Positions 1-60,450 of a DNA stretch of 64,000 nt are shown here, piece after piece; the stretch's first letter is position 1; each line of letters starts with the position of its first letter. Source of the DNA: Mobula hypostoma (lineage: Eukaryota); contig NC_086097.1 of assembly GCF_963921235.1 (NCBI RefSeq), positions 165,480,001 to 165,544,000 of the forward strand, read 5' to 3'. The notes beneath the pieces are model-generated. The model was not told where the DNA came from and did not search any database. It saw only the letters and a program-made list of their open reading frames with translations. Both the position numbers and the translations under genes were made by a program.

Positions 1-270
1 CTTGACAGTGTCCGAGATCCCTCTGTTCATCAACACTGTTTAGGGTCTTGTCCTTGACGGTGTCCGAGATCCCTCTGTTCATCAACACTGTTTAGGGTCT
101 TGTCCTTGACAGTGTCCGAGATCCCTCTGTTCATCAACACTGTTTAGGGTCTTGTCCTTGACAGTGTCCGAGATCCCTCTGTTCATCAACACTGTTTAGG
201 GTCTTGTCCTTAACAGTGTCTGAGATCTTTCTGTTCATCAACACTGTTTAGGGTCTTGTTCTTAACAGTG
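1..270. repeat. 52-bp tandem repeat (at least 5 copies) derived from CR1 LINE sequence
   Basis: Unit cttgacagtgtccgagatccctctgttcatcaacactgtttagggtcttgtc starts at 1, 53, 105, 157 and 209, then runs directly into antisense CR1. Confidence 0.95.
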
Positions 271-965
271 TACTGTCTCTTTCTATTTGACCTACCATAG
301 TGCAACATTTCACATATGGCTGGGTTAATCTTCATCTGCCACTTCTCCATCCATATCTGTAACTGATCTATATTCTGCTGCATCCTTTGAGGACTCGATC
401 CACAATACCACCAATCTTTGTATTATCTGCAAACTTACCATCTAAATTTTCATCCAGGTCATTTATATAGTACATTACAAACAGCAGAGGCCGCAGTACA
501 GTTAACTACAGAACACCACCTAATCAGACCTCCAGCTAGAACAAGTCCCTTTGACCACTACCCTGTCTTCTAGGGGCAAGCCTTGTCTTCTATGGGCAAG
601 CCAGTTCTGAATCCAAATGGCCAATTCACCATGGATCCCATTCATCTTAACCTTCTGGATGAACCTCCCCGAGGGACCTTGTCAAAGCTTACTAAAATCC
701 ATGTACGTAACATCCACAGTTCAACCTTCATCAATTACCCTTGTCACCTCATAAAAAATATCAATCAAGTTAGTAAGACACAACTTGCCCTGCACAATGC
801 CATACTGGCTCTCCCTAATTAATGCTATAGCTTTCCTATCCCTAAGAATTCTCCCCAGTAACTTCCCTACAACTGACATGAGACTCACCGGTCTATAGTT
901 TCCAGGATTATCCCTGGTTCCCTCCCTGAATAATGGAACAAGATTAGCTACCCAGAAGTCCTCTG
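261..965 (-). mobile_element. Degenerate CR1 LINE RT fragment
   Basis: Collinear with the better-preserved CR1 copy at 15.4-16.3 kb (accttgtcaaa...cttact.aa.tccat, tctgcaaactta). Confidence 0.8.
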
Positions 966-4063: not shown

Positions 4064-4992
4064 ATTTACTATAAGATCACTTACTCCCACAGCTACTGTC
4101 TCCAGTAAGTATAGATGGTAGTCCACTATCAGCACTTGGTGTCTTTGCTGATTTTGTTCATTTACAGTCAATCAGAAAAACGGCAGTGTTCACTGAATAA
4201 ATTCCTCCCTCAATATCTATTAGGAACTAAAAACACATTTTTATAGTAGTTATAATTTGTTCTGTATTTCATGTAAATACATTATTTGTTACTCAGTTAA
4301 ATGGTAATTTGTCCTTTTATACCTTTTTAACTATTATCATGAAACTTTGGCTAATTAGGGCAGCCAATTGGATATGTGACCACTGACACCATGCAGACAA
4401 TATCTGAAGAGTATTGATAATGACTGGGGTCACCCGTCTTGTAAAGACACTGCCCAGAAGAAGGCAATGGCAAACCACTTCTGTAGAAAAACTTGCCAAG
4501 AACAATCATGGCCAAGACCATGATCACCCACATCATATGACATAGCACATAATGACTGAATGAATGAATTCTAACGTACAGCTGCCGCAAAACAACAATT
4601 ATCATGACATATGCCAGTGATGTTAAATGTGATTCTGATTCTGCATCAGGCAAGAGGTACCTAAAGTCCCACACTACCAGGTTCAGGAACTTCCCTTCAA
4701 CCACTCGGTTCTTGGATCATCCGGCACAAGCCTAGTCACTAAGAATATAACATCACTATGACAACTGATCATTTTGCACTAAAATGGATCATCTTTGTTC
4801 TAATTGTGTATAATGTATGCTGATTGTTTATTTTTGATTTATTGTTTAATATTGAATGTTTAATTTGTGAATGCTGCTTATCTGACCTATGCACCTGTGA
4901 AGCTGCTGTAGATAAGTTTTTCATTGTACATGTACATACATATAATAAACTTGATTTTGACTGGACTTGACCTTGTGATCTGACCTATCAAG

Positions 4993-5245
4993 CAACATGC
5001 ACAAATTGCTGGAGGAACTCAGCAGGCCGGGCAGCACTTATAGAAAAGAGTACAATCGACATTTCGGGCTGAGACCCTTCATCAAGACTGGGAGTGGATA
5101 GGTTAGGGTGATGAAATGCTGATGAAGGGTCTCGGCCTGAAACATCAACTGTACTCATTTCCATAGATGCTGCCTGGCCTGCTGAGTTCCTTCATCAATT
5201 TGTGTGTGTTCCTTGGATTTCCAGCATCTGTGGATTTTCTCTTGT
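4993..5245. mobile_element. PLE terminus with inverted partial repeat and hammerhead motifs in both orientations
   Basis: 4993-5090 is the reverse complement of 5118-5210. ctgatga-agggtctcggcct-gaaa-catc starts at 5119. Flanked by imperfect direct repeats ttgtgatctgacctatcaag (4973-4992) and ttgtgatccaacttatcaag (5246-5265). Confidence 0.8.
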
Positions 5246-5849
5246 TTGTGATCCAACTTATCAAGTTGTTTTGTCCTGTGGTGATTACTCAGCTCATGGC
5301 TATTCTGAAAAGCTCTGAGAAGAGAATCCAACCAGACGTATTACAACCTTATGAATTTAACAGTGTTCACATTATTTTTACATAATGCACATTTCCAGCA
5401 TTTTTGTTTTAATTTGGGATTTCCGATATCCACAATTTTTCAGTTGATCTTACTACTCCCATTTACACCTTTAGATTATTCCCTGTTGCTCCATGATCTC
5501 TTGAGTCAGTTAATCTCATAGGGACAATACAGCATTGAAACAGGCCCTTTGGTCCATCAATTATCCATATATCATGTCTTTTACTCTTAACAGTCCTTCT
5601 TCCATGTTTGTTCATCTTCTTCATCTCTGTTTTCTGTATATCCTGATTCTACAACCAGCTGCGAACATTAATTAATATTTACGCTAACAATTAAAATTGC
5701 CAACTGGCATGTGTTTGGGATGCTTCATTGAGATAGGAAGTAGGCGGACTAGGCCACCTTGCCTCTCAAGCTTGCACCACTGTTTAATAAGATCATGGCT
5801 TCTTTGATTCTCACCTCATCTCTGCAACCCCACCTAGCCCTGGTAACAT

Positions 5850-10859: not shown

Positions 10860-11345
10860 ACAGGGTGGAAACCCCCCGCAGCACAGCGCCGACGCGCGCG
10901 AGCGCCTCTCCCGTGGGGCGTCGGGCTGCCGCACCTGCGCGCTGACTCCGAGTGCGCGAAGCCCCGCCTCCCGCCGGGCCCAAGCCGCCGCAAAGTGGAC
11001 GAGGCGGGTGGTGGATCGGCTCCGCGGGAGATGGGCGACGCAGCCCCCAGGAAGGGGTTGCTATAAATTAGGTGAGGCGCCGGGGTTAAATGTCTGGGGA
11101 GGGGAAAGAATGAGATAAAATAGAATGGCGCGGTGATCTCCTGTGCGGAGCACAGGATGAGGCCTGGCGGGGAGGGTCGCACGGACACCGGCCCCGTTTT
11201 CACGAAGAGCAGCTGGGTGGGGGAGTCGGGAAGAGCCCTTGTACGGACGCTACCAGCAGCATGGCGGCAGCTGGATTTCGCCCTCACACGCCCCGGCACA
11301 GCTTCACATCACATCACTAAACAATTCGAATTGAGTCGCTTGGCT
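10860..11345 (+). promoter_or_regulatory. CpG island, probable RALBP1 promoter and non-coding exon 1 (donor after 11071)
   Basis: Abrupt CpG/GC-rich unique sequence in an otherwise CpG-poor window. GC boxes (ccccgcctccc, gaggcggg) and a consensus donor ttag|gtgagg at 11072. The TSS cannot be determined from sequence. Confidence 0.75.
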
Positions 11346-11424
11346 CCGTGTAGCTTCTTCACCATTATACCCCCAATGTCCCGTTAAAGATCACTTCCAT
11401 CATCATCCTTCCCAGCCACGAGAT

Positions 11425-12330
11425 GTGCCGTCCCCCTCCCTCCGCGCGAACCCCCCCCGGTCCCTCCTCCCTCCACGCGACCCCCCCGTCCCCCCTCCCT
11501 CCGCGCGAACCCCCCCCCGGTCCTTCCTCCCTCCGCGCGACCCCCCCCGTCCCCCCTCCCTCCGCGCGACCCCCCCCGTCCCCCCTCCCTCCGCGCGACC
11601 CCCCCCGTCCCCCCTCCCTCCGCGCGACCCCCCCCGTCCCCCCTCCCTCCGCGCGAACCCCCCCCGTCCCCCCTCCCTCCGCGCGAACCCCCCCCGGTCC
11701 CCCCTCCCTCCGCGCGAACCCTCCGCGCGAACCCCCCCCGGTCCCCCCTCCCTCCGCGCGAACCCCCCCCGGTCCCCCCTCCCTCCGCGCGAACCCCCCC
11801 CGGTCCCCCCTCCCTCCGCGCGAACCCCCGTCCCCCCCGCGCGACCCTCTCCCCGGTCCCCCCCTCCCTCCGCGCGACCCTCTCCCCGGTCCCCCCCTCC
11901 CTCCGCGCGACCCTCTCCCCGGTCCCCCCCTCCTTCCGCGCGACCCCCCCGGTCCCCCCTCCCTCCGCGCGACCCCCCCGGTTCCCCCTCCCTCTACACG
12001 ACACCCCCATTCCCCTCCCTGTGTGCGACCCTCCCCCATCCCTCTCCCTCTGTGCGACACCCCTCTTTCCACTGGCCCTCCCTCACTCTGCGCGTCGTTC
12101 CTCCCCGCCCCCGTTCCCACTCCCTCCATGTGACCCTGCTGGTCCCCCCTCCTGCGCAACCCCTTTCCACACTGCTCCCCCTTCCCCTGCACAACCCCAC
12201 ACAGGTCCCCATTCTCTCCATGTGACCCCCACCATACCCCTATAAGCAAACCCACCCCGGTCTGTCCTCCCTCTGTGTAACCCCCCCCTGCACGACCCCC
12301 CTGGTCCCCCTGCTTCTGCACGATCCCCTA
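11425..12330. repeat. GC-rich minisatellite, ~27-31 bp unit (cccccccggtcccccctccctccgcgcga)
   Basis: About 20 near-identical units to ~11990, then degenerate units to ~12330. Confidence 0.95.
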
Positions 12331-12564: not shown

Positions 12565-12833
12565 AATCACTACTGCGAAGCTTCTTCCGGTGATGCCTAC
12601 ACTGAAGAAGTTTAAATCTTCTCTTCGACGGGAGTTCAGTGAAACTATCTCTCACTGCTCCCCATCTCTTACTAGCTCTCCTTTCAGTTAGTCCTGACGA
12701 GGGGTCTCGGCCGGAAACACCAACTGTACCTCTTCCTAGAGATGCTGCCTGGCCTGCTGCATTCACCAACTTTGATGTGTGTTGCTTGAATTTCCAGCAT
12801 CTGCAGATTTCCTCGTGTTTGCGTTTTTAATCA
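12565..12833 (+). mobile_element. PLE terminal fragment with degenerate hammerhead
   Basis: agtc-ctgacga-ggggtctcggccg-gaaa-cacc from 12690, followed by the same 3' tail as 20848-20980. Confidence 0.8.
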
Positions 12834-18237: not shown

Positions 18238-20846
18238 TGTTCAAGTTCAACAGTGTGTAACAGGGAATGAGGAAAGGTGCAGCTGACTCATATTGTTTCC
18301 TTACGGCCCGGTAGCACATGCTTTGCAGCCCGGTGGTTGGGGACCACTGACCTATAGGACGGCTTTGAATTGGTGGACTGGACTGTTTTCAGGGATTCAT
18401 CTTTGAATCTGGATGAGTATGCTGCAGTTGTTACCGACTCCATTAAAACCTGTGTGGATGAGTGTGTGCCTACAAAGACTTACTGTACATTCCCAAACCA
18501 AAAGCTGTGGATGACTACTACGTCGACTCAGGCCTAGGGTGCCGTCGTCAGGCACAATGACGGACTCTCCACTTCTCTCTCTCCCTCATCAGTATGTTCA
18601 GTTCATCTACATTAACCCCGCTGCTATCTTCTAGGAGAGTGTTGACCATAGTCTTGGGAGGGCGCCCAGGGTTCATCCTCCCGTGCTTGGGCTCCCATAT
18701 GAGGACGTGGCGTAGACAGTGCCCTGCTAGTTGCAGTCTTCTTGCCTCGATTTTAGTGATGAGCATCGAAGTTCGTCGTGCTGTTGCCAACGCACGTCAA
18801 GAGCCGTCCCGAGCATTCGTGTATAGCAACCATTTAGAGACTTTCGCATAGTCTTGGTGAGTGTCCATGTCTTGCATCCGTACGTGAGAATGGACTCTTA
18901 TGACTGCTATGAAAATCCTCTTTTTAAGCCCTCTGGTCAGGTTCGACTTCCAGATTTCCTGCATGTTGTTCATAGCTCTCCACGCCAGCGCCTTCCATAT
19001 CTTTATGTCCTTCTCCGAACTCATCATTCTTGACCCGAGGTACTTGTAGTCAAAGACTTTCTTAATGGCATCATTCTTTACGGTCTTGAGAGTACCTTTG
19101 TCGCAGTTAAACGCCATGTACTCTGTCTTTTTAGCGTTTAGGTGAAGTCCAACTTTATTGCACTCAATTTCCACTTCTGTCAGTAACTGCTGTGCTTCCT
19201 CCATGTGGTCAGAGAGCAGGACTATGTCATCTGCAAAATCTAGATCTGTGAGCATAACTGGTCTGACCCTTTTGGTTTGTCCTGGTTTTATGGTAAAACC
19301 AAGCTTGTCATGATCTTTGGTAGCTTGTTGCAGAGCGTAATCAAGGACGATTATAAAGATGTAGGGTGCCAAAGTGTCTCCTTGCAGCACACCAGCTAGG
19401 AGCTCAAACACTGCTGTTTCTCTGTCTGGTGATACAACTTTTGCCATGGTTTTGGTATAGCTGGACTCTATTGCTCTCAGTTGAAGGTCTGGCACTCCGT
19501 AAGCTTTCAGGGTCTTCAACATTTTACCTCGGTGAATGGAGTCAAAAGCTTTGTGAAAATCAATGTAAGTAAGCACGGCTAGTAGGTTGCTCTTCTTGAC
19601 TTCCTCGATGATCCTACGGAGAGCAAGTATTTGCATTACTGTTGTGCACTTCTGCCGAAAACCATTCTGATTGAATCTTAGCTTAGGATCAATGGCGGTG
19701 CGAATCCTGTTCAAGATCATCTGATTGTATAGCTTTGCTAAGATGCAGGTCAAGCTGATACCGCGGAAGTTATCTGTCTTAGTGAGGGATCCAGACTTGG
19801 GGACTGGGATAATGTTTGAGAGTGACCACTGTTCTGGTTTGTCGCCTTTCATCAGTGCCATATTACATATTTCCAGCAAGATGTTGTCCAGGTCGCAGTT
19901 CTTCAGGACATCTGGTGGTATCCCATCTGGTCCAGTGCTCCTGCCCTGTTTGAGTGCATATTTGGCCTTCTTCAGTTCCTCAATGGTGAAGGGGCCGTCA
20001 TCGATGTCGACTTGTGTTAGTATCGTGGGTATGTCCTCTTCTTCTTCTGTGATCGTTGGAGGGCTTCCCAGCAGGTTCTTAAAGTGGGTAAACCATGTCT
20101 GGACACGGTCCTCTGTTGTTTTACCACTTATATGAACTGATGGGGACTTCTTCCGTCTACTGATCTCATTGACTGGGCACCATGCTTCTCCATGCTGCAT
20201 GTCTTCATTAGCAGCCTGTATCTCTCTAATCCTCTCAGCTAGTTCCTCTTCTTCAGTTGGTCATAGGTGGCAAAGAGATTCTTCTTTGCTGTCTTGGTCT
20301 TGTCTCAGCTCTCCTGTTTTGCTCCTAAGTTCGGCATGACAAGCATTGACCACACCTCTTGTTGCGACGATGTCAGGATGTTTGGAGATCCAGGTCTTCT
20401 TGATTCGCTTCACAGTAGGCAAACTCTTTGTTGCATCTGTGTGTGCGTCTATGAGCCATTGATAGCGGTCGGTGGCAGTCTCTTCCTCCCCCCTTTCCAG
20501 TGGGCCAAAGCAATTTCTCACCTCCACTATGTACTGGGCTTGAAGAATAGTTTGTGAGGAGAATGCCTCCAGTCTACCTTCTCCTTGGGACCTGTGGCTT
20601 TGGGTTGCCGCAGGCTCAGTCTCACTTGCATTGACACTACTCTGTGGTCAGAACTGACCGAGTTGAAGGTGCTGTAGGGTTCTGTGTTGATCACACAATT
20701 ACGCCATTTTGTTCTTATGAGGATGTAGTCGAGCTGTTTCCTGTAGATGGAGGCACTGTTTTCGTATGTCCACAGTTTACCAGCTCGCTTCTTGAATTGT
20801 GTGTTGGCGGCAATGAGACTGTGTTCCTGGATGAAATCAATTAGAT

Positions 20847-20882
20847 AGTCCTGACGAAGGGTCTCGGCCTGAAACGTCGACT
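20847..20882 (+). ncRNA. Minimal type I hammerhead ribozyme motif
   Basis: agtc-CTGACGA-agggtctcggcct-GAAA-cGTC-gact: intact core, stem I agtc/gact, GUC cleavage triplet. Confidence 0.75.
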
Positions 20883-20980
20883 GCACCTCTTCCTAGAGAT
20901 GCTGCCTGGCCTGCTGCGTTCACCAGCACCTTTTATGTGTGTTGCTTGAATTTCCAGCATCTGCAGAATTCCTGTTGTTT
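20848..20980 (+). mobile_element. 133-bp PLE-derived insertion containing a hammerhead motif
   Basis: TSD tcaattagata at 20837-20847 and 20981-20991. Removing it restores the RTE frame NRNGQYLIDFIQEH. Confidence 0.9.
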
Positions 20981-23900
20981 TCAATTAGATATTGTCCATT
21001 TCTGTTGGTAAAGTCTTGGTATGAGTATGGAACATCTTCCAGTCCGACCTGGGCATTAAAGTCGCCGAGCACAGCCAGGAAGTTATGTGCCGGTATTGAA
21101 GTGACAGCTTCATGAAGTTTACTGTGGAAGGCCTCCACCTCCTTCTCCTCACTGCAGTTGTACGGGGAGTAACAGATGATGACAGAGGTTGCTGGGTTTC
21201 CGTCAAATTCCGCAGTAAGGATTCTGTCACTGACTGAGACTACGCCCCTCAGTGCCTTCTTCGCCTTGCGGCTCAACATCAGCCCTACTCCTCCTTGTGC
21301 TGACATCGTCGTCGGCTGTCTCCATGCGGACGAGGTGATGAGGTGCATCCTCTCTACCTCTGTGAACCTTATCTCTTCGTCAGGGTGTATACAACGGTGT
21401 TTTTGGATCCCCAGGATGGAGATCTCGTAGCTGCTTGCCTGTGATGCCAACTCTGTGCATCGAGGCAAGAGGCGGATGGTGTTTGCGTTGAAGGTTGAGA
21501 TGATCGTTTTTACCTTACAACGCAAAAGAGGCGCAGTTCGCTCGGCCCCCTGTCGGACTCAACCCTCCCTGTGGGGTTTGAGGTTGCATCGTCATACTGC
21601 CTGTCTCGGCCAGGGTCTGGGTGTTCCGCAGAGTTCCTGAGCACTCCCGGCTCTGGAAGTATAAGGTTTGTTGGCTTGTCTGTCATCATAATGCCTTACA
21701 TAATGCTGTGGATGAACCAGGAGGTAACGTCGTCTGCTGAAGACTAGATCTGTTTTATTCAAGTCTGGCAACCCAGACCTGTACCAGAAAACCAGGTATG
21801 ATTTGTGGAGGGCTATTTCAAGGGCAAAGAGACAATTCCAAATGAGGTTGGAAGAGATATCAGATGCACGGCAACTCTGGCAGGGTCTGCAAGACATTGC
21901 TTCCTACAAAGCGAAACCCAATAGTATGAATGGCAGCGATGCTTCACTACACCTTCTATGCATGCTTTGAAAGGGAGAACACAACTACAGCTGTGAAGAT
22001 CCCTGCTGCACCTGATGACCCTGTGATCTCTGTCTCAGAGGCCGATGTTAGACTGTCTTTAAAGAGAGTGAACCCTCGCAAGTCGGAAGGTCCCGATGGA
22101 GTACCTGGTAAGGCTCTGAAAACCTGTGCCGACCAACTAGCGGGAGTATTCAAGGACATTTTCAACCTTCCACTTGCTTCAAAAAGGCAACAATTATACC
22201 AGTGCCTAAGAAGAATAATGTGGTCTGCCTTAATGACTATCGCCCGGTAGCACTCGCATCAACAGTGATGAAATGCTTTGAGAGGTTGGTTATAACTAGA
22301 CTGAACTGCTGCCTCAGCAAGGACCTGGACCCATTGCAATTTGCCTATCACCACAATAGGTCAATGGCAGGTGCAATCTCAGTGGCTGTCCACACTGTAG
22401 ACCACCTAGACAACACAAAGACCTACGTCAGGATGCTTTTCATTAACTATAGCTCAGCATTTAATACCATCATTCCCAAAATCCTGATTGCGAAGTTGCA
22501 GAACCTGGGCCTCTGTACCTCCCTCTGCAATTGGATCCTCAGTTTCCTAACCGGAAGACCATAGTCTGTGCGGATTGGTGATAACATATCCTCCTCGCTG
22601 ACAATCAACACTGGCGCACTTCAAAGGTGTGTGCTTAGCCCACTGTTCTACTCTTTATATACACGTGACTGTGTGGCCAGGCATAGCTCAAATACCATCT
22701 ACAAATTTGCTGACGGTACAACCATCGTTGGTAGAATCTCAGATGGTGACGAGAGGACGTACAGGAGTGAGATATGCCAACTAATGGAATGGTGCCGCAG
22801 CAACAACCTGGCACTCAACGTCAGTAAGACGAAAGAGCTGATTGTGGACTTCAGGAAGGGTAAGACGAAGGAGCACATACCAATCCTCATAGAGGGATCA
22901 GAAGTGGAGAGTGAACAGCTTCAAGTTCCTCAGTGTCAAGATCTCTGAGGAATTAATCTGGCCCCAACATATCGATGTAGTCATAAAGAAGGCAAAACAT
23001 CAGCTGTACTTCATTAGGAATTTGAAGAGATTTGACATGTCAGCAAATACACTCAAAAACTTCGATAGTTGTACTGTGGAGAGTATTCTGACAGGCCGCA
23101 TCACTGTCTGGTATGGGGGGCTTACTGCGCAGGACTGAAAGAAGCTGCAGAATGTTGTTAAGTCTAGTCAGCTCCATCTTGGGCACTAGCCTACAAAGTA
23201 CCCAGGACATCTTTGGGGAGCAGTGTCTCAGAAAGGCAGCGTCCATTATTAAGGACCTCCAGCACCCAAGGCATGCCCTTTTCTCACTGTTACCATCAGA
23301 TAGGAGATACAGAAGCCTGAAGGCACACACTAGCGATTCAGGAACAGCTTCTTCCCCTCTACCATCCAATTCCTAAATGGACATTGAAGCTTTGGACACT
23401 ACTTTTTTTAATATACACTATTTCTGTTTTTTGCACATTTAAAAAAATCTATTCGATATACGTAATTGATATACTTGTTTATTATGTTTTATTTTATTTA
23501 TTATTATTATTTTTTCTCTCTGCTAGATTATGTATTGCATTGAACTGCTGCTGCTGAGTTAACAAATTTCACATCCAGTGCCGGTGATAATAAACCTGAT
23601 TCTAATTCTAATGAGTCTGTGTGCTTTTAGGCAGAGTACTCTAACACACTGTCATTTGCTTTGTGAAAAAGCTTTTCCACATTTTTTTTGGTTCTTTGCT
23701 GCTCACTTAATCTACACCTCCCTTTTATCCTCTGCCTACTTTCTTGATAATGTATATCTCATAAATTTTCTTGTTGCTTGAAGAAAGGGAGGATCTAAAA
23801 GGTTTGTTACATACTTTAATGAACTTTTATTTTCTTGTTATTTGTTGAGATACAGCACAGAATAGGCCTTTCTGGCTCGTTGACCTGTGCTGCCCAAGCA

Positions 23901-24141
23901 ACCCCTGATTGAACTCAGCCTAAATCATGGGATAATTTACAACGACCAATTAACCTACCAACTAATTTTCGCAATCGGTACCTGCCTAAACGTAAATTGG
24001 AAAGAGAAAATGGTTTCTCTTTTCCAGATTGTCATATTGTAAACTTTTTTGGATTATTATGGAATTGTTTTTGTTTAATACCTCTTGCATTCTCAGGTGT
24101 TATGGACAGGTAATGAAAGGGAGAAATTCCCAGGTGCAACA

Positions 24142-24385
24142 ATGACTGAATGTTTCCTGCCACCAACGAGCAGTCCCAGTGAACACCGCAGGGCTGAGCA
24201 TGGCAGTGGCCTAGCTCGTACTCCAAGCTCCGAGGAGATCAGTCCTACAAAATTCCCAGGACTGTATCGAACAGGTGAAGTTTCACCTCCTCATGAAGGC
24301 CTGCATGAGTCTGTTGATATAGTGTCTGACGACGAAAAGGAGCACACAAAGAAAAAAGGCAAATTTAAAAAGAAAGAAAAAAGAA
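24142..24385 (+). CDS. RALBP1: RalA-binding protein 1, coding exon 2 (start codon)
   Basis: ATG at 24142 gives MTECFLPPTSSPSEHRRAEHGSGLARTPSSEEISPTKFPGLYRTGE...KKKGKFKKKEKR, the RALBP1 N-terminus. Acceptor tctcag|24097, donor a|gtaag at 24386. Confidence 0.97.
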
Positions 24386-24779
24386 GTAAGTATTGTTCAC
24401 CAAAGATCATGATATGTTTACTTTGACCATAAAAATGCACCAGGACTGTTACTATGATTTAACTGATCGTGTGAGGAAAGTAGTGGATGGACAAGAGGGG
24501 TAAACTGATCTTTTTAATCCCTGGATCCTGATTTTTTTTTTACTCCACTCAAAAAATTGACTGTGAAGGTTGTGTGTTTAGTTCTCAGTCCAGCTGCTAA
24601 TGGGTTTGAACCTACAATATAAACTGACTTCATTATTAGATATCTCACTCAGGCTGAAGTGAGATATAACAAATAAATTATATCATACGACCGTATGTCT
24701 CCACTCTACAGTTTGTTCTGAAATGGAAAACATTTGATTTCCCAATACTAATATTCTCATCTTGGTGAGCAGAAACAAT

Positions 24780-25574: not shown

Positions 25575-26036
25575 CTGAGGGGTATGCAGCCTTCCAAGAG
25601 GACAGCTCAGGTGATGAAGCAGAGAGCCCATCAAAGATGAAAAGACCAAAGGGTATCCATGTCTTCAAAAAGCCTAGTTTCTCCAAGAAGAAAGAAAAAG
25701 ATTTTAAGATCAAAGAAAAGCCAAAGGAAGAAAAGCACAAAGAGGAAAAGCATAAAGAGGACAAACACAAGGAGAAAAAGTCCAAAGATATAACTGCAGC
25801 AGATGTCGTTAAACAGTGGAAAGAGAAAAAGAAAAAGAAAAAACCTGTTCCGGAGCAGGAAGCAGTTCAGATGGATACTCCTTCTTCCTTCCGGCCTATC
25901 TTTGGTATTCCATTGGCTGAGGCTGCTGAGAGGACTATGCTATATGATGGGATCCAGCTACCAGCAGTTTTTCGTGAATGCATTGACTATATTGAAAATT
26001 ATGGCATGAAAAGTGAAGGCATTTATAGGGTATCAG
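25575..26036 (+). CDS. RALBP1: RALBP1 exon 3 (Lys/Glu-rich region and start of RhoGAP domain)
   Basis: Acceptor ttttacatag|, translation (T)EGYAAFQEDSSGDEAESPSK...PIFGIPL...LPAVFRECIDYIE...EGIYRVSG, donor cag|gtatg. Phase matches exon 2. Confidence 0.97.
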
Positions 26037-26672: not shown

Positions 26673-27087
26673 CTTATCCGTGTAAGCGGAACAAGTGCTA
26701 CACCTCCCCCTCGTACCCCATCTGTTACTCATTTTTATGCACACATTCTTTCTCTCACTCTCCTTTTTCTCCCTCTGTCCCTCTGAATATACCTCTTGCC
26801 CATCCTCTGGGTCACCCCCCCCCTTGTCTTTCTTCCCGGACCTCCTGTCCCATGATCCTTTCGTACCCCCTTTTGCCTATCACCTGTCCAGCTCTCGGCT
26901 CTATCCCTCCCCCTCCTGTCTTCTCCTATCATTTTGCATCTCCCCCTTCCCCTCCAGCTTTCAAATTCCTTACTCACTCTTCCTTCAGTTAGTCCTGACG
27001 AAGGGTCTCGGCCTGAAACGTCGACTGCACCTCTTCCTATAGATGCTGCTTGGCCTGCTGCGTTCACCAGCAACTTTGATGTATGTT
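26673..27087 (+). mobile_element. Internally deleted PLE (Neptune-like): Cys linker fragment plus pyrimidine-rich terminus and hammerhead
   Basis: Starts with YPCKRNKCYT-coding sequence, hammerhead at 26991, TSD actgaaata at 26664-26672 and 27088-27096. Confidence 0.8.
26991..27026 (+). ncRNA. Minimal type I hammerhead ribozyme motif
   Basis: Identical to 20847-20882. Confidence 0.75.
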
Positions 27088-27290
27088 ACTGAAATATTTG
27101 TGTTTGGTGCCAAAATAGAATGATTGAAAGTTAGTGCTCACTTACAGTCCTTGTTGTTACAGACCACAAACCAAGCCAGAATCCTTGGTGTTGTGATGGA
27201 CTCTGAGTTAAATTTTAACTGCCACATTAAGACAATTGCAAAGTCAGCCTACTACCATCTTAAAAATATAACGAGAGTTTAAAGGGCTTA

Positions 27291-35020: not shown

Positions 35021-35610
35021 TAAACACAAGAGTTCTGCAGGTGCTGGAAATCTTGAGCAACACACACATAATGTTGGAGGAACTCAGCAAGTCAGGCAGT
35101 ATCTACGAAGGGGAATAAACAGTTGCAGTTTTGGGCTGAGACCTGACTAAGGTCTCGGCCCAAAACATTAACTGTTTGAGATTCAGATATATTTGTCGTA
35201 TGTACATCAAAACATACAGTGAAATGCATCATTTGCATTAATAAACAACACATCCAAGTATGCACTGGGTGCAGCCCAGAAGTGTCATCTTACATTCCGG
35301 TGCCAACATAGTATGCCCACAATGTTCAATACAACACAGAACCGCATGGTGGCAGCAACAACAGCAGCAAATCAACCCCCTTCACACATGCAGGCCTTTG
35401 ACCCCAGGACGGACTGCCTCTAGGCCTCCAGACCTTGGCCCCAGACTTTCTGGCCTGCACTTCCAGACTTGCAGACATTAGAGCTCCAACCACCAGTCTC
35501 TGGACTAGACTCACTAAGTTCAATCTTCAGACTTTCAGGCTTCAACCTTTGGTTTTGCCCTCCGTAGATGCTGCCTGACTCGCGGTTTTCCTCCAGCATT
35601 TTGTATGTGA
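35021..35610. mobile_element. Inverted PLE terminus interrupted by a LINE-tail-like insertion (~35178-35560)
   Basis: aaacacaagagttctgcaggtgctggaaa...ggaggaactcag, then ggtctcggcccaaaac, resuming at agatgctgcctgactcg...tccagcatttt. Confidence 0.65.
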
Positions 35611-59700: not shown

Positions 59701-59890
59701 GCAGTCTCTTGTGTCTTTGCCCTTTCTTGCAGCAAACCCAAATCTCTTGTAAATGAGGAAATCAATCCAATTCACTTTAAACTGATTCAGCTGGCTTGGC
59801 ATTTGCGGCTCTATTTCATTCAGTGATATCTGCTTCTGCTTAAAATGGCAAGTACTGAATGGCAAGTGTTTCTCTGGTACATATGACTAA

Positions 59891-60188
59891 TAAACTCTTC
59901 TCAGGCTTCTAGACAGGTACAGGTATTGACTTTAACCAACATTTCAATGACAAACTTTGCTGTCTTCTTCAGAGCTGATGCCTAGGGCATGTCTAGTCTA
60001 GTGGTATTTATACCCCCGTCGTTCATCCCTCCTGAGGACTCACCAATCAGGAGGGATGGATGACGGGGGTATATATACTATCAGACTAGACATGCCTAGG
60101 CATCATCCCTGAAGAAGATTTCAGAGCTTGTCATTGAAATGTTGGTTAGAATCAGTAACTACCTGGTTGGAAGCATGAGAACAGTTTA
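59891..60188. mobile_element. ~300-bp palindrome: inverted PLE-like terminal repeat (second family) with hammerhead-like cores
   Basis: Arms pair around loop 60036-60046. ctgaaga-agatttcagagcttgtcatt-gaaa-tgtt at 60109-60143, with its complement in the left arm. Confidence 0.75.
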
Positions 60189-60450
60189 ATAGCAGTACTG
60201 AGTTTGATGGTCACGTGATGTGATAGACTTGGTTTGAGAATCAGAAAAATATACAAACAATGTTTCTTAAAATGTGGCTCAGTGCTGAGTGAAATAAGGT
60301 TTTATTAGGCCATCTGCCCCGTCAAGTCGGCTCCACTATTTCATCATGGCTGATCCATTTTCCCTCTTAGCCCCAATCTCCTGCCTTCTCCCCCTTATCC
60401 CTGCATATCCTGACCAATAAAAAAAATCTATCAACATGTGCTTAAATATA

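What the first reader, a model, noticed from the sequence alone, without database searches (positions are those of the whole stretch)
20837..20991. Self-contained 133-bp hammerhead-ribozyme insertion with a perfect 11-bp TSD
Seen: a 133-bp insert begins at stem I of an intact minimal hammerhead (gtc-CTGACGA-agg...cct-GAAA-cGTC-gact) and is flanked by tcaattagata repeats. Removing it restores the host RTE endonuclease frame. Known: Penelope-like elements carry minimal type I hammerheads in their terminal repeats, reported to cleave efficiently mainly as dimers. Inference: this is either an extremely 5'-truncated PLE or a tiny non-autonomous ribozyme retroelement. It lies in the sense orientation of the RALBP1 pre-mRNA.
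Basis: partly seen in the sequence, partly recalled or inferred. Interest (0 to 1): 0.72.

Follow-up and report, generated by a model that had tools for sequence, protein, structure and literature searches.

The report
Penelope stub ending at transcript start
This 133-base insert is the tail of a very abundant Penelope-type jumping gene, and thousands of its copies begin at the same front edge of a predicted self-cutting RNA motif, likely because the copying enzyme starts inside the element's RNA and runs off its uncut front end; it is a by-product, not a separate mini-element.

Summary
The 133-bp insert, the 11-bp TSD and the minimal hammerhead motif are real. The insert is the last 133 nt of a Neptune-type Penelope-like element (1,016-aa RT/GIY-YIG ORF; 25,868 exact matches to its last 35 nt). 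The same 133 nt also open the element's predicted RNA, just before the ORF. The 5' ends are not random: about 2,000 copies stop at nt 133/134 (stem I), against 153 at a control position and 384 at the ribozyme cut. Second-round junctions end at A134 in 8 of 13 loci. Short copies form no clade of their own. Best reading: internal priming in the 5' repeat, then run-off at an uncleaved RNA 5' end, probably the transcription start. Two unrelated loci carry 310-bp head-to-tail hammerhead units joined at a U12-type donor and an AG acceptor, likely copied from a spliced circle. No RNA evidence was obtained and cleavage is untested. This scan had already noted both the peak and the 310-nt unit on other DNA of this genome; I did not find either in the papers searched.

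The parts
20837..20847 (+). 5' target-site duplication, 11 bp; its last two letters equal the element's nt 135-134, so the 5' end is 133-135
20848..20980 (+). 133-nt terminus of a Neptune-type Penelope-like element (3' end of the pLTR, which is also the predicted 5' UTR ahead of the ORF)
20848..20883 (+). Minimal type I hammerhead motif: stem I 20848-20850 with 20879-20881, core 20851-20857, stem II 20858-20870, GAAA 20871-20874, palindromic helix III without loop, predicted cut after 20878
   Evidence: motif class from PMC4209133
20981..20991 (+). 3' target-site duplication, 11 bp
20527..21558 (-). Endonuclease-like frame of the host LINE, interrupted by the insert
   Evidence: empty sites
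18797..20260 (-). RT frame of the host LINE
26992..27090 (+). Nearest other sense copy with an intact hammerhead core, 6.1 kb downstream and beyond two host exons; ends at the inner 3' end about 35 nt short
12568..12820 (+). Older copy of the same family: ORF-start fragment joined to a terminus whose hammerhead core is broken
24097..24390 (+). First coding exon of the host RhoGAP gene (RALBP1 by recalled motifs), ATG at 24142; end approximate

Best explanation
The insert is the terminal 133 nt of an autonomous Neptune-type Penelope-like element, and its length is likely that of a complete run-off cDNA, from an internal priming site back to the uncleaved 5' end of the element's RNA. Shown: parent structure pLTR-ORF-pLTR; the 133 nt are followed in full elements by a short tail and the ATG; 5' ends pile up at nt 133/134; head-to-tail junctions end at A134. 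Inferred steps: (1) the RNA begins at A134, the base before stem I, most likely a Pol II start, with minor ends at A138 and A149; (2) the GIY-YIG domain makes staggered cuts 10-17 nt apart; (3) the RT primes inside the RNA as reported for the anole element; (4) priming in the downstream repeat gives long, randomly truncated copies, priming in the upstream repeat runs off after about 134 nt; (5) the cDNA end is joined to the target with loss of 0-2 nt or 1-2 nt of microhomology. The template was not cut by its hammerhead. This copy would be a dead end, and as a lone motif is predicted not to cut the host pre-mRNA appreciably.
For: Intact 1,016-aa ORFs between direct repeats in 5 of 20 loci picked for the tail (Pfam RVT_1 and GIY-YIG, both under cut-off). 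100 copies taken by their 3' end only: 11 end at nt 131-135 against 28 in 70 flanking nt; 7 of 48 non-inverted copies there, 0 of 48 at the cut site 100-104. Genome-wide counts with five forced mismatches and 27 fixed letters: 2,368 at nt 133/134 (about 15 of the 100 listed rows belong to a sister subfamily, by eye, so about 2,000), 153 at nt 141/142, 384 at nt 101/102. Of 13 loci where the ORF start is joined back to the hammerhead region, 8 resume at A134 (+/-1), 1 at A138, 2 near A149, 2 at T136; six of the eight A134 loci also have their first round starting at nt 132-134. A134 and A149 fit the YYANWYY initiator (consensus recalled), and the sister subfamily keeps the fit at A134. Internal priming, use of unprocessed RNA and need for the ORF's first 172 nt are reported in vitro for another clade's element (PMC11167929).
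Against: No RNA 5' end was observed. No consistent extra G, which copying of a cap might leave, shows at A134 junctions (by eye). The 131-135 window was chosen after seeing the data, so its p value (3e-5) is optimistic. The three count patterns differ in their fixed letters and include inverted arms and small deletions. In D. virilis Penelope the start lies 46 nt plus a 75-nt intron upstream, not at the hammerhead (PMC2377424; PMC4209133). A branch-point-like motif and AG sit just upstream of stem I, so a splicing-factor roadblock could give a similar peak. The 100 copies all come from the first 10 Mb of one contig.
Confidence: 0.74

Rival explanations
1. Roadblock, not RNA end: the RNA extends upstream and the RT is stopped just before the 3' splice-site-like stretch by bound splicing factors, with the A149 stops at a lariat branch point.
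For: yUnAy-like motif with A149, pyrimidine run and CAG end at nt 137; this AG is used in the 310-bp junctions; intron end meets helix I in D. virilis.
Against: Head-to-tail junctions resume at one base, A134, in 8 of 13 loci; 41 of 100 copies read through to beyond nt 180; no recurrent upstream exon among 100 listed of 399 copies starting at T136, apart from the known array.
Confidence: 0.14
2. A discrete non-autonomous ribozyme retroelement (SINE- or retrozyme-like) of about 133 nt that is transcribed and re-mobilised from its own short copies.
For: Sharp modal length with clean TSDs; thousands of copies; non-autonomous PLE derivatives are described (PMC8557442; bioRxiv 10.64898/2026.07.22.740005).
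Against: Short copies' nearest neighbours are short in 0.29 of cases against 0.36 expected; short-short distance 5.1 is no less than short-long 4.8 (21 short, 35 long). The stub lacks the tail and ORF start that the anole element needs as template. One hammerhead only, no tandem.
Confidence: 0.06
3. Ordinary random 5' truncation that happens to land at stem I.
For: Lengths cover 38-2,484 nt.
Against: About 13-fold more ends at 133/134 than at 141/142 and about 5-fold more than at 101/102.
Confidence: 0.04
4. Antisense-template or self-priming route, as discussed for rotifer Penelope elements: the stem I edge is where copying starts rather than stops.
For: PMC3846280 discusses it; 52 of 100 copies have an inverted arm.
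Against: 3' ends are fixed at two sites while 5' ends vary over 2.4 kb, the polarity of target-primed copying of a sense RNA; splice-like junctions read correctly on the sense strand.
Confidence: 0.02

Closest known systems
EN+ Penelope-like elements, Neptune type (PMC8557442, passages read)
   Same: Single ORF with RT then GIY-YIG, CX4CxxC linker and CCHH cysteines, pLTRs, partial tandems, inverted 5'-truncated arms, optional 30-40 bp tail, hammerhead in the pLTR.
   Different: A single-base modal 5' end at stem I is not mentioned in the passages read; clade placement here is by diagnostic motifs, not by a tree.
Minimal type I hammerheads of metazoan PLEs (PMC4209133, parts 1-2 of 4 read)
   Same: Core boxes, no loop III, palindromic 15.2-16.2, short helix I, mostly single dispersed motifs from truncated PLEs.
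   Different: Helix II is 3-4 bp and in the young subfamily lacks G10.1-C11.1 (139 of the 192 motifs found read ...GGCCU, 5 read ...GGCCC).
Poseidon element of the green anole (PMC11167929, parts 1-2 of 4 read)
   Same: Two internal 3' ends about 35 nt apart, both strands primed, uncleaved RNA as template.
   Different: Other clade; there the ORF starts inside the hammerhead, here about 140 nt after the cut site; run-off stubs are not described in the parts read.
Animal non-LTR retrozymes (PMC7229834, passages; bioRxiv 10.64898/2026.07.22.740005, parts 1-3 of 5)
   Same: PLE-related hammerhead; the two 310-bp arrays elsewhere in this genome have the size and tandem form of retrozymes.
   Different: The window copy is a single 133-nt unit; the arrays are only two loci and their joint lies at splice-like sites, not at the ribozyme cut.

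Membership tests
EN+ Penelope-like element | Single ORF with RT and C-terminal GIY-YIG | tested here: met
   1,016-aa ORF in parents; Pfam RVT_1 507-670 and GIY-YIG 919-993, both weak
EN+ Penelope-like element | pLTRs, partial tandems, inverted truncated arms, optional tail | tested here: met
EN+ Penelope-like element | CCHH motif with two cysteines between GIY and YIG | tested here: met
   criterion
Neptune clade | CX2-5CxxC linker before a C-terminal EN (absent in Penelope/Poseidon) | tested here: met
   CX4CxxC at residue 883
Neptune clade | RT phylogeny with reference elements | not tested
   no reference sequences held; Nematis not excluded by a tree
Minimal type I hammerhead | Core boxes, stems I and II, palindromic helix III | tested here: met
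Minimal type I hammerhead | G10.1-C11.1 pair | tested here: not met
   A-U or G.U in this copy and most young copies
Minimal type I hammerhead | Self-cleavage at GUC as a dimer | not testable with these tools
   needs in vitro assay
Non-LTR retrozyme | Tandem units with two or more hammerheads | tested here: not met
   window copy is single; met only at two other loci
Non-LTR retrozyme | Expressed circular RNA | tested here: inconclusive
   only assembled contigs of uncertain type available; no bridging contig listed
Non-autonomous SINE-like family | Short copies descend from short masters | tested here: not met
U12-type intron (310-bp junction) | 5' splice site RTATCCTT | tested here: met
   11 of 13 parent-type copies; consensus from PMC3291851
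U12-type intron (310-bp junction) | Branch site TCCTTAACT, 11-13 nt from the 3' site, no pyrimidine tract | tested here: inconclusive
   spacing of 12 nt fits, sequence is closer to yUnAy and a pyrimidine run is present

The most novel reading that the evidence does not exclude
This Penelope family encodes a minor-spliceosome (U12-type) donor at codon 46 of its ORF that is joined to an acceptor three bases before the hammerhead. Splicing deletes the 3.2-kb ORF or back-splices a 310-nt exon, sets two minimal hammerheads 310 nt apart, and yields a circle that the element's RT copies round and round into TSD-flanked tandem arrays: the birth of a retrozyme from a Penelope element, caught at two independent loci, while the 133-bp stubs map the element's transcription start to the foot of the ribozyme.
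Probability: 0.35. Interest if true: 0.72.

Novelty: new member of a known kind. Interest (0 to 1): 0.4.

Why it matters
The insert itself is one of thousands of stubs and is ordinary. The family pattern bears on open questions of Penelope biology: where the RNA begins, whether the hammerhead cuts the template before copying (the genomic record says mostly not, as found in vitro), and how short pLTRs and retrozyme-like tandems arise. It gives base-exact predictions (RNA end at A134; one 310-nt splice junction) that RACE, RT-PCR or an in vitro priming assay can test, with intact ORF copies at hand in this genome.

Tried and rejected
Rfam scan: no hammerhead hit, two chance hits. Sequencing runs: no RNA holder on record; contigs of runs X1-X4 on a full element and of X1, X3, X5, X19 on the 310-bp junction listed no bridging contig and no molecule ends; this says nothing either way. 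Protein search with the ORF's first 200 residues: no hit among 652 candidates, so conservation of the U12-like donor in other species could not be tested. A 5'-UTR intron with an upstream exon as cause of the peak: no recurrent upstream letters in 100 listed of 399 copies starting at T136. Hammerhead cleavage as cause of the 5' end: the peak is 31 nt upstream of the cut. Covariation across subfamilies was not assessed: the motifs held are nearly all one young subfamily. Pfam gave nothing for the two interrupted endonuclease pieces. Look-up of earlier findings by sequence was blank. PMC10228655 had no useful passage. Supplements were not read; those of PMC4209133 and of the 2026 preprint (closed) may list cartilaginous-fish hammerheads or retrozymes that match this family.
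Full report
Numbering: 'nt N' counts back from the family's common 3' end, so the window insert spans nt 133 (20848) to nt 1 (20980).

Observation. The insert, the two identical 11-mers and the hammerhead boxes are at the stated places. Stems I and II appear in the predicted fold, but the region is no more stable than shuffles and Rfam does not score it. Six of seven paralogous copies of the host LINE have the 11-mer once, so it is a true duplication. Without the insert the endonuclease-like frame is open, though the host is broken further on. RhoGAP-coding exons on the + strand start at 24142 and a CpG island lies at 11001-12000, so the insert is probably in the first intron, sense. The nearest intact sense hammerhead is 6.1 kb away beyond two exons.

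Parent. The best 30 genomic matches mostly continue upstream into one shared sequence that encodes RT and GIY-YIG. The last 35 nt match exactly at 25,868 places. A minority of copies continue downstream into a tail and the ORF's ATG; 5 of 20 such loci hold an intact 1,016-aa ORF between direct repeats. The protein has the CX4CxxC linker and CCHH cysteines that PMC8557442 gives for Neptune-type elements. So the 133 nt are both the 3' end of inserted copies and the leader ahead of the ORF, the arrangement explained by internal priming in the anole element (PMC11167929).

5' ends. I took the first 100 exact matches of the 3' 35-mer, all from one contig, with no selection on the 5' side. Lengths run from 38 to 2,484 nt; 52 have an inverted arm; 25 of the other 48 have a perfect TSD of 10-17 bp. 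Eleven end at nt 131-135 against 28 in 70 flanking nt; none of the 48 non-inverted copies ends at the predicted cut (nt 100-104). The window was chosen after seeing the data. Genome-wide patterns that force five mismatches upstream of a break gave 2,368 at nt 133/134 (about 15% sister-subfamily rows by eye), 153 at nt 141/142 and 384 at nt 101/102. The fixed parts of these patterns differ, so the ratios are approximate.

Where the RNA ends. A gapped search found 16 junctions at 13 loci in which the first 145-175 nt past the common end are joined back to the hammerhead region. Eight resume at A134 (+/-1), one at A138, two near A149, two at T136. In six of the eight the outer round starts at nt 132-134 too. 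This is what a polymerase does when it runs off a template end and re-enters. A134 and A149 fit the initiator consensus (recalled). No RNA data confirm a start there, and a branch-point-like motif with AG just upstream allows a roadblock reading. No common upstream exon was seen.

Not a separate family. Among 21 short and 35 long copies, short ones are not each other's nearest neighbours more often than chance. Among the ten best-scoring loci compared, the closest to the window copy (one mismatch) is a 2.2-kb ORF-bearing copy.

Hammerhead. It matches the minimal PLE type, which was inactive as a monomer and weak as a dimer in vitro (PMC4209133) and protein-assisted and dispensable for insertion in the anole element. 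This subfamily also lacks G10.1-C11.1. Stubs that keep the 5' strand of stem I were copied from uncut RNA. An effect on the host pre-mRNA is unlikely but untested.

A side result. Two loci on different contigs carry 310-bp head-to-tail units inside one TSD-flanked insertion, with four and two identical junctions; the units of the two loci differ at 4-5 positions, so the events are independent. No further locus appears with two mismatches allowed. In parents the left side of the joint is followed by RTATCCTT (11 of 13 copies; the only such site in each of five intact-element loci), the U12-type donor consensus (PMC3291851), and the right side is preceded by CAG. These are the only junctions that repeat within a locus. 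Against: three other loci share an identical junction with no splice signal, so recurrence alone proves nothing; the donor lies in coding frame; one diverged copy does not keep it; the branch region looks partly U2-like; the alternating C/T in the four-unit array allows later DNA duplication; and no bridging contig was listed. I put splicing at about 0.65 and the full minor-spliceosome circle reading at 0.35.

What is known. PLE hammerheads, truncated single motifs, tails, inverted arms and the kinship of retrozymes to pLTRs are in print. Seven paper searches (listings only, besides the papers named) showed no report of a run-off peak at stem I or of a U12-type splice in a PLE; the library lacks most subscription papers and Repbase. 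Seen of each paper: PMC4209133 and PMC11167929 parts 1-2 of 4; the 2026 preprint parts 1-3 of 5; passages of PMC8557442, PMC2377424, PMC3584512, PMC7229834, PMC3846280, PMC3291851, PMC10228655; no supplements. After my own tests I found that other agents of this scan had reached the same peak reading and the same 310-nt junction on other DNA of this genome; these are unchecked notes, not independent support.

Verdict. Real, explained as a stereotyped stub of a known kind of element. Modest interest for the mechanism that the family record makes testable.

Noticed in passing
L151 (G000:C2:157816563-157817514) and L174 (G000:C50:58412484-58412815): 310-bp head-to-tail hammerhead units within single TSD-flanked insertions, joined at a U12-type donor and an AG acceptor; four and two identical junctions.
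   Followed up: yes
L189, L191, L195: Three independent loci share one exact junction from about 167 nt past the common 3' end to A134 with no splice signal; re-entry sites cluster at +145 to +175, suggesting a preferred RNA end or protein-bound site.
   Followed up: partly
L199 (G000:C21:75959212-75962550): A paralogous LINE copy carries an independent insertion of the same family about 10 bp from the window's site, in the opposite orientation (1 of 7 paralogues); possible target preference.
   Followed up: partly
window 12568-12820: Older two-part copy: ORF-start fragment joined by microhomology to the terminus; hammerhead core broken; just downstream of the CpG island.
   Followed up: partly
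window 4988-5247 and 35022-35143: Older sister-subfamily copies in head-to-head arrangement, 76-80% identical to the insert.
   Followed up: no
L031-L130: Inverted arms nearly always start 29-48 nt inside the common 3' end (39 of 52), a second priming site.
   Followed up: partly
L160, L153, L163, L165, L169: Five elements with intact ORFs of about 1,016 aa, so the family is young and may be active.
   Followed up: partly
L131 and L135: Two long copies sit in near-identical flanking repeats at offset positions; relationship not worked out.
   Followed up: no
window 59887-60192: About 300-bp imperfect palindrome, with further repeats at 38.3-39.8 kb, 55-56 kb and 60-61.6 kb.
   Followed up: no
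window 1-271: Tandem repeat of about 52-bp period at the window start.
   Followed up: no
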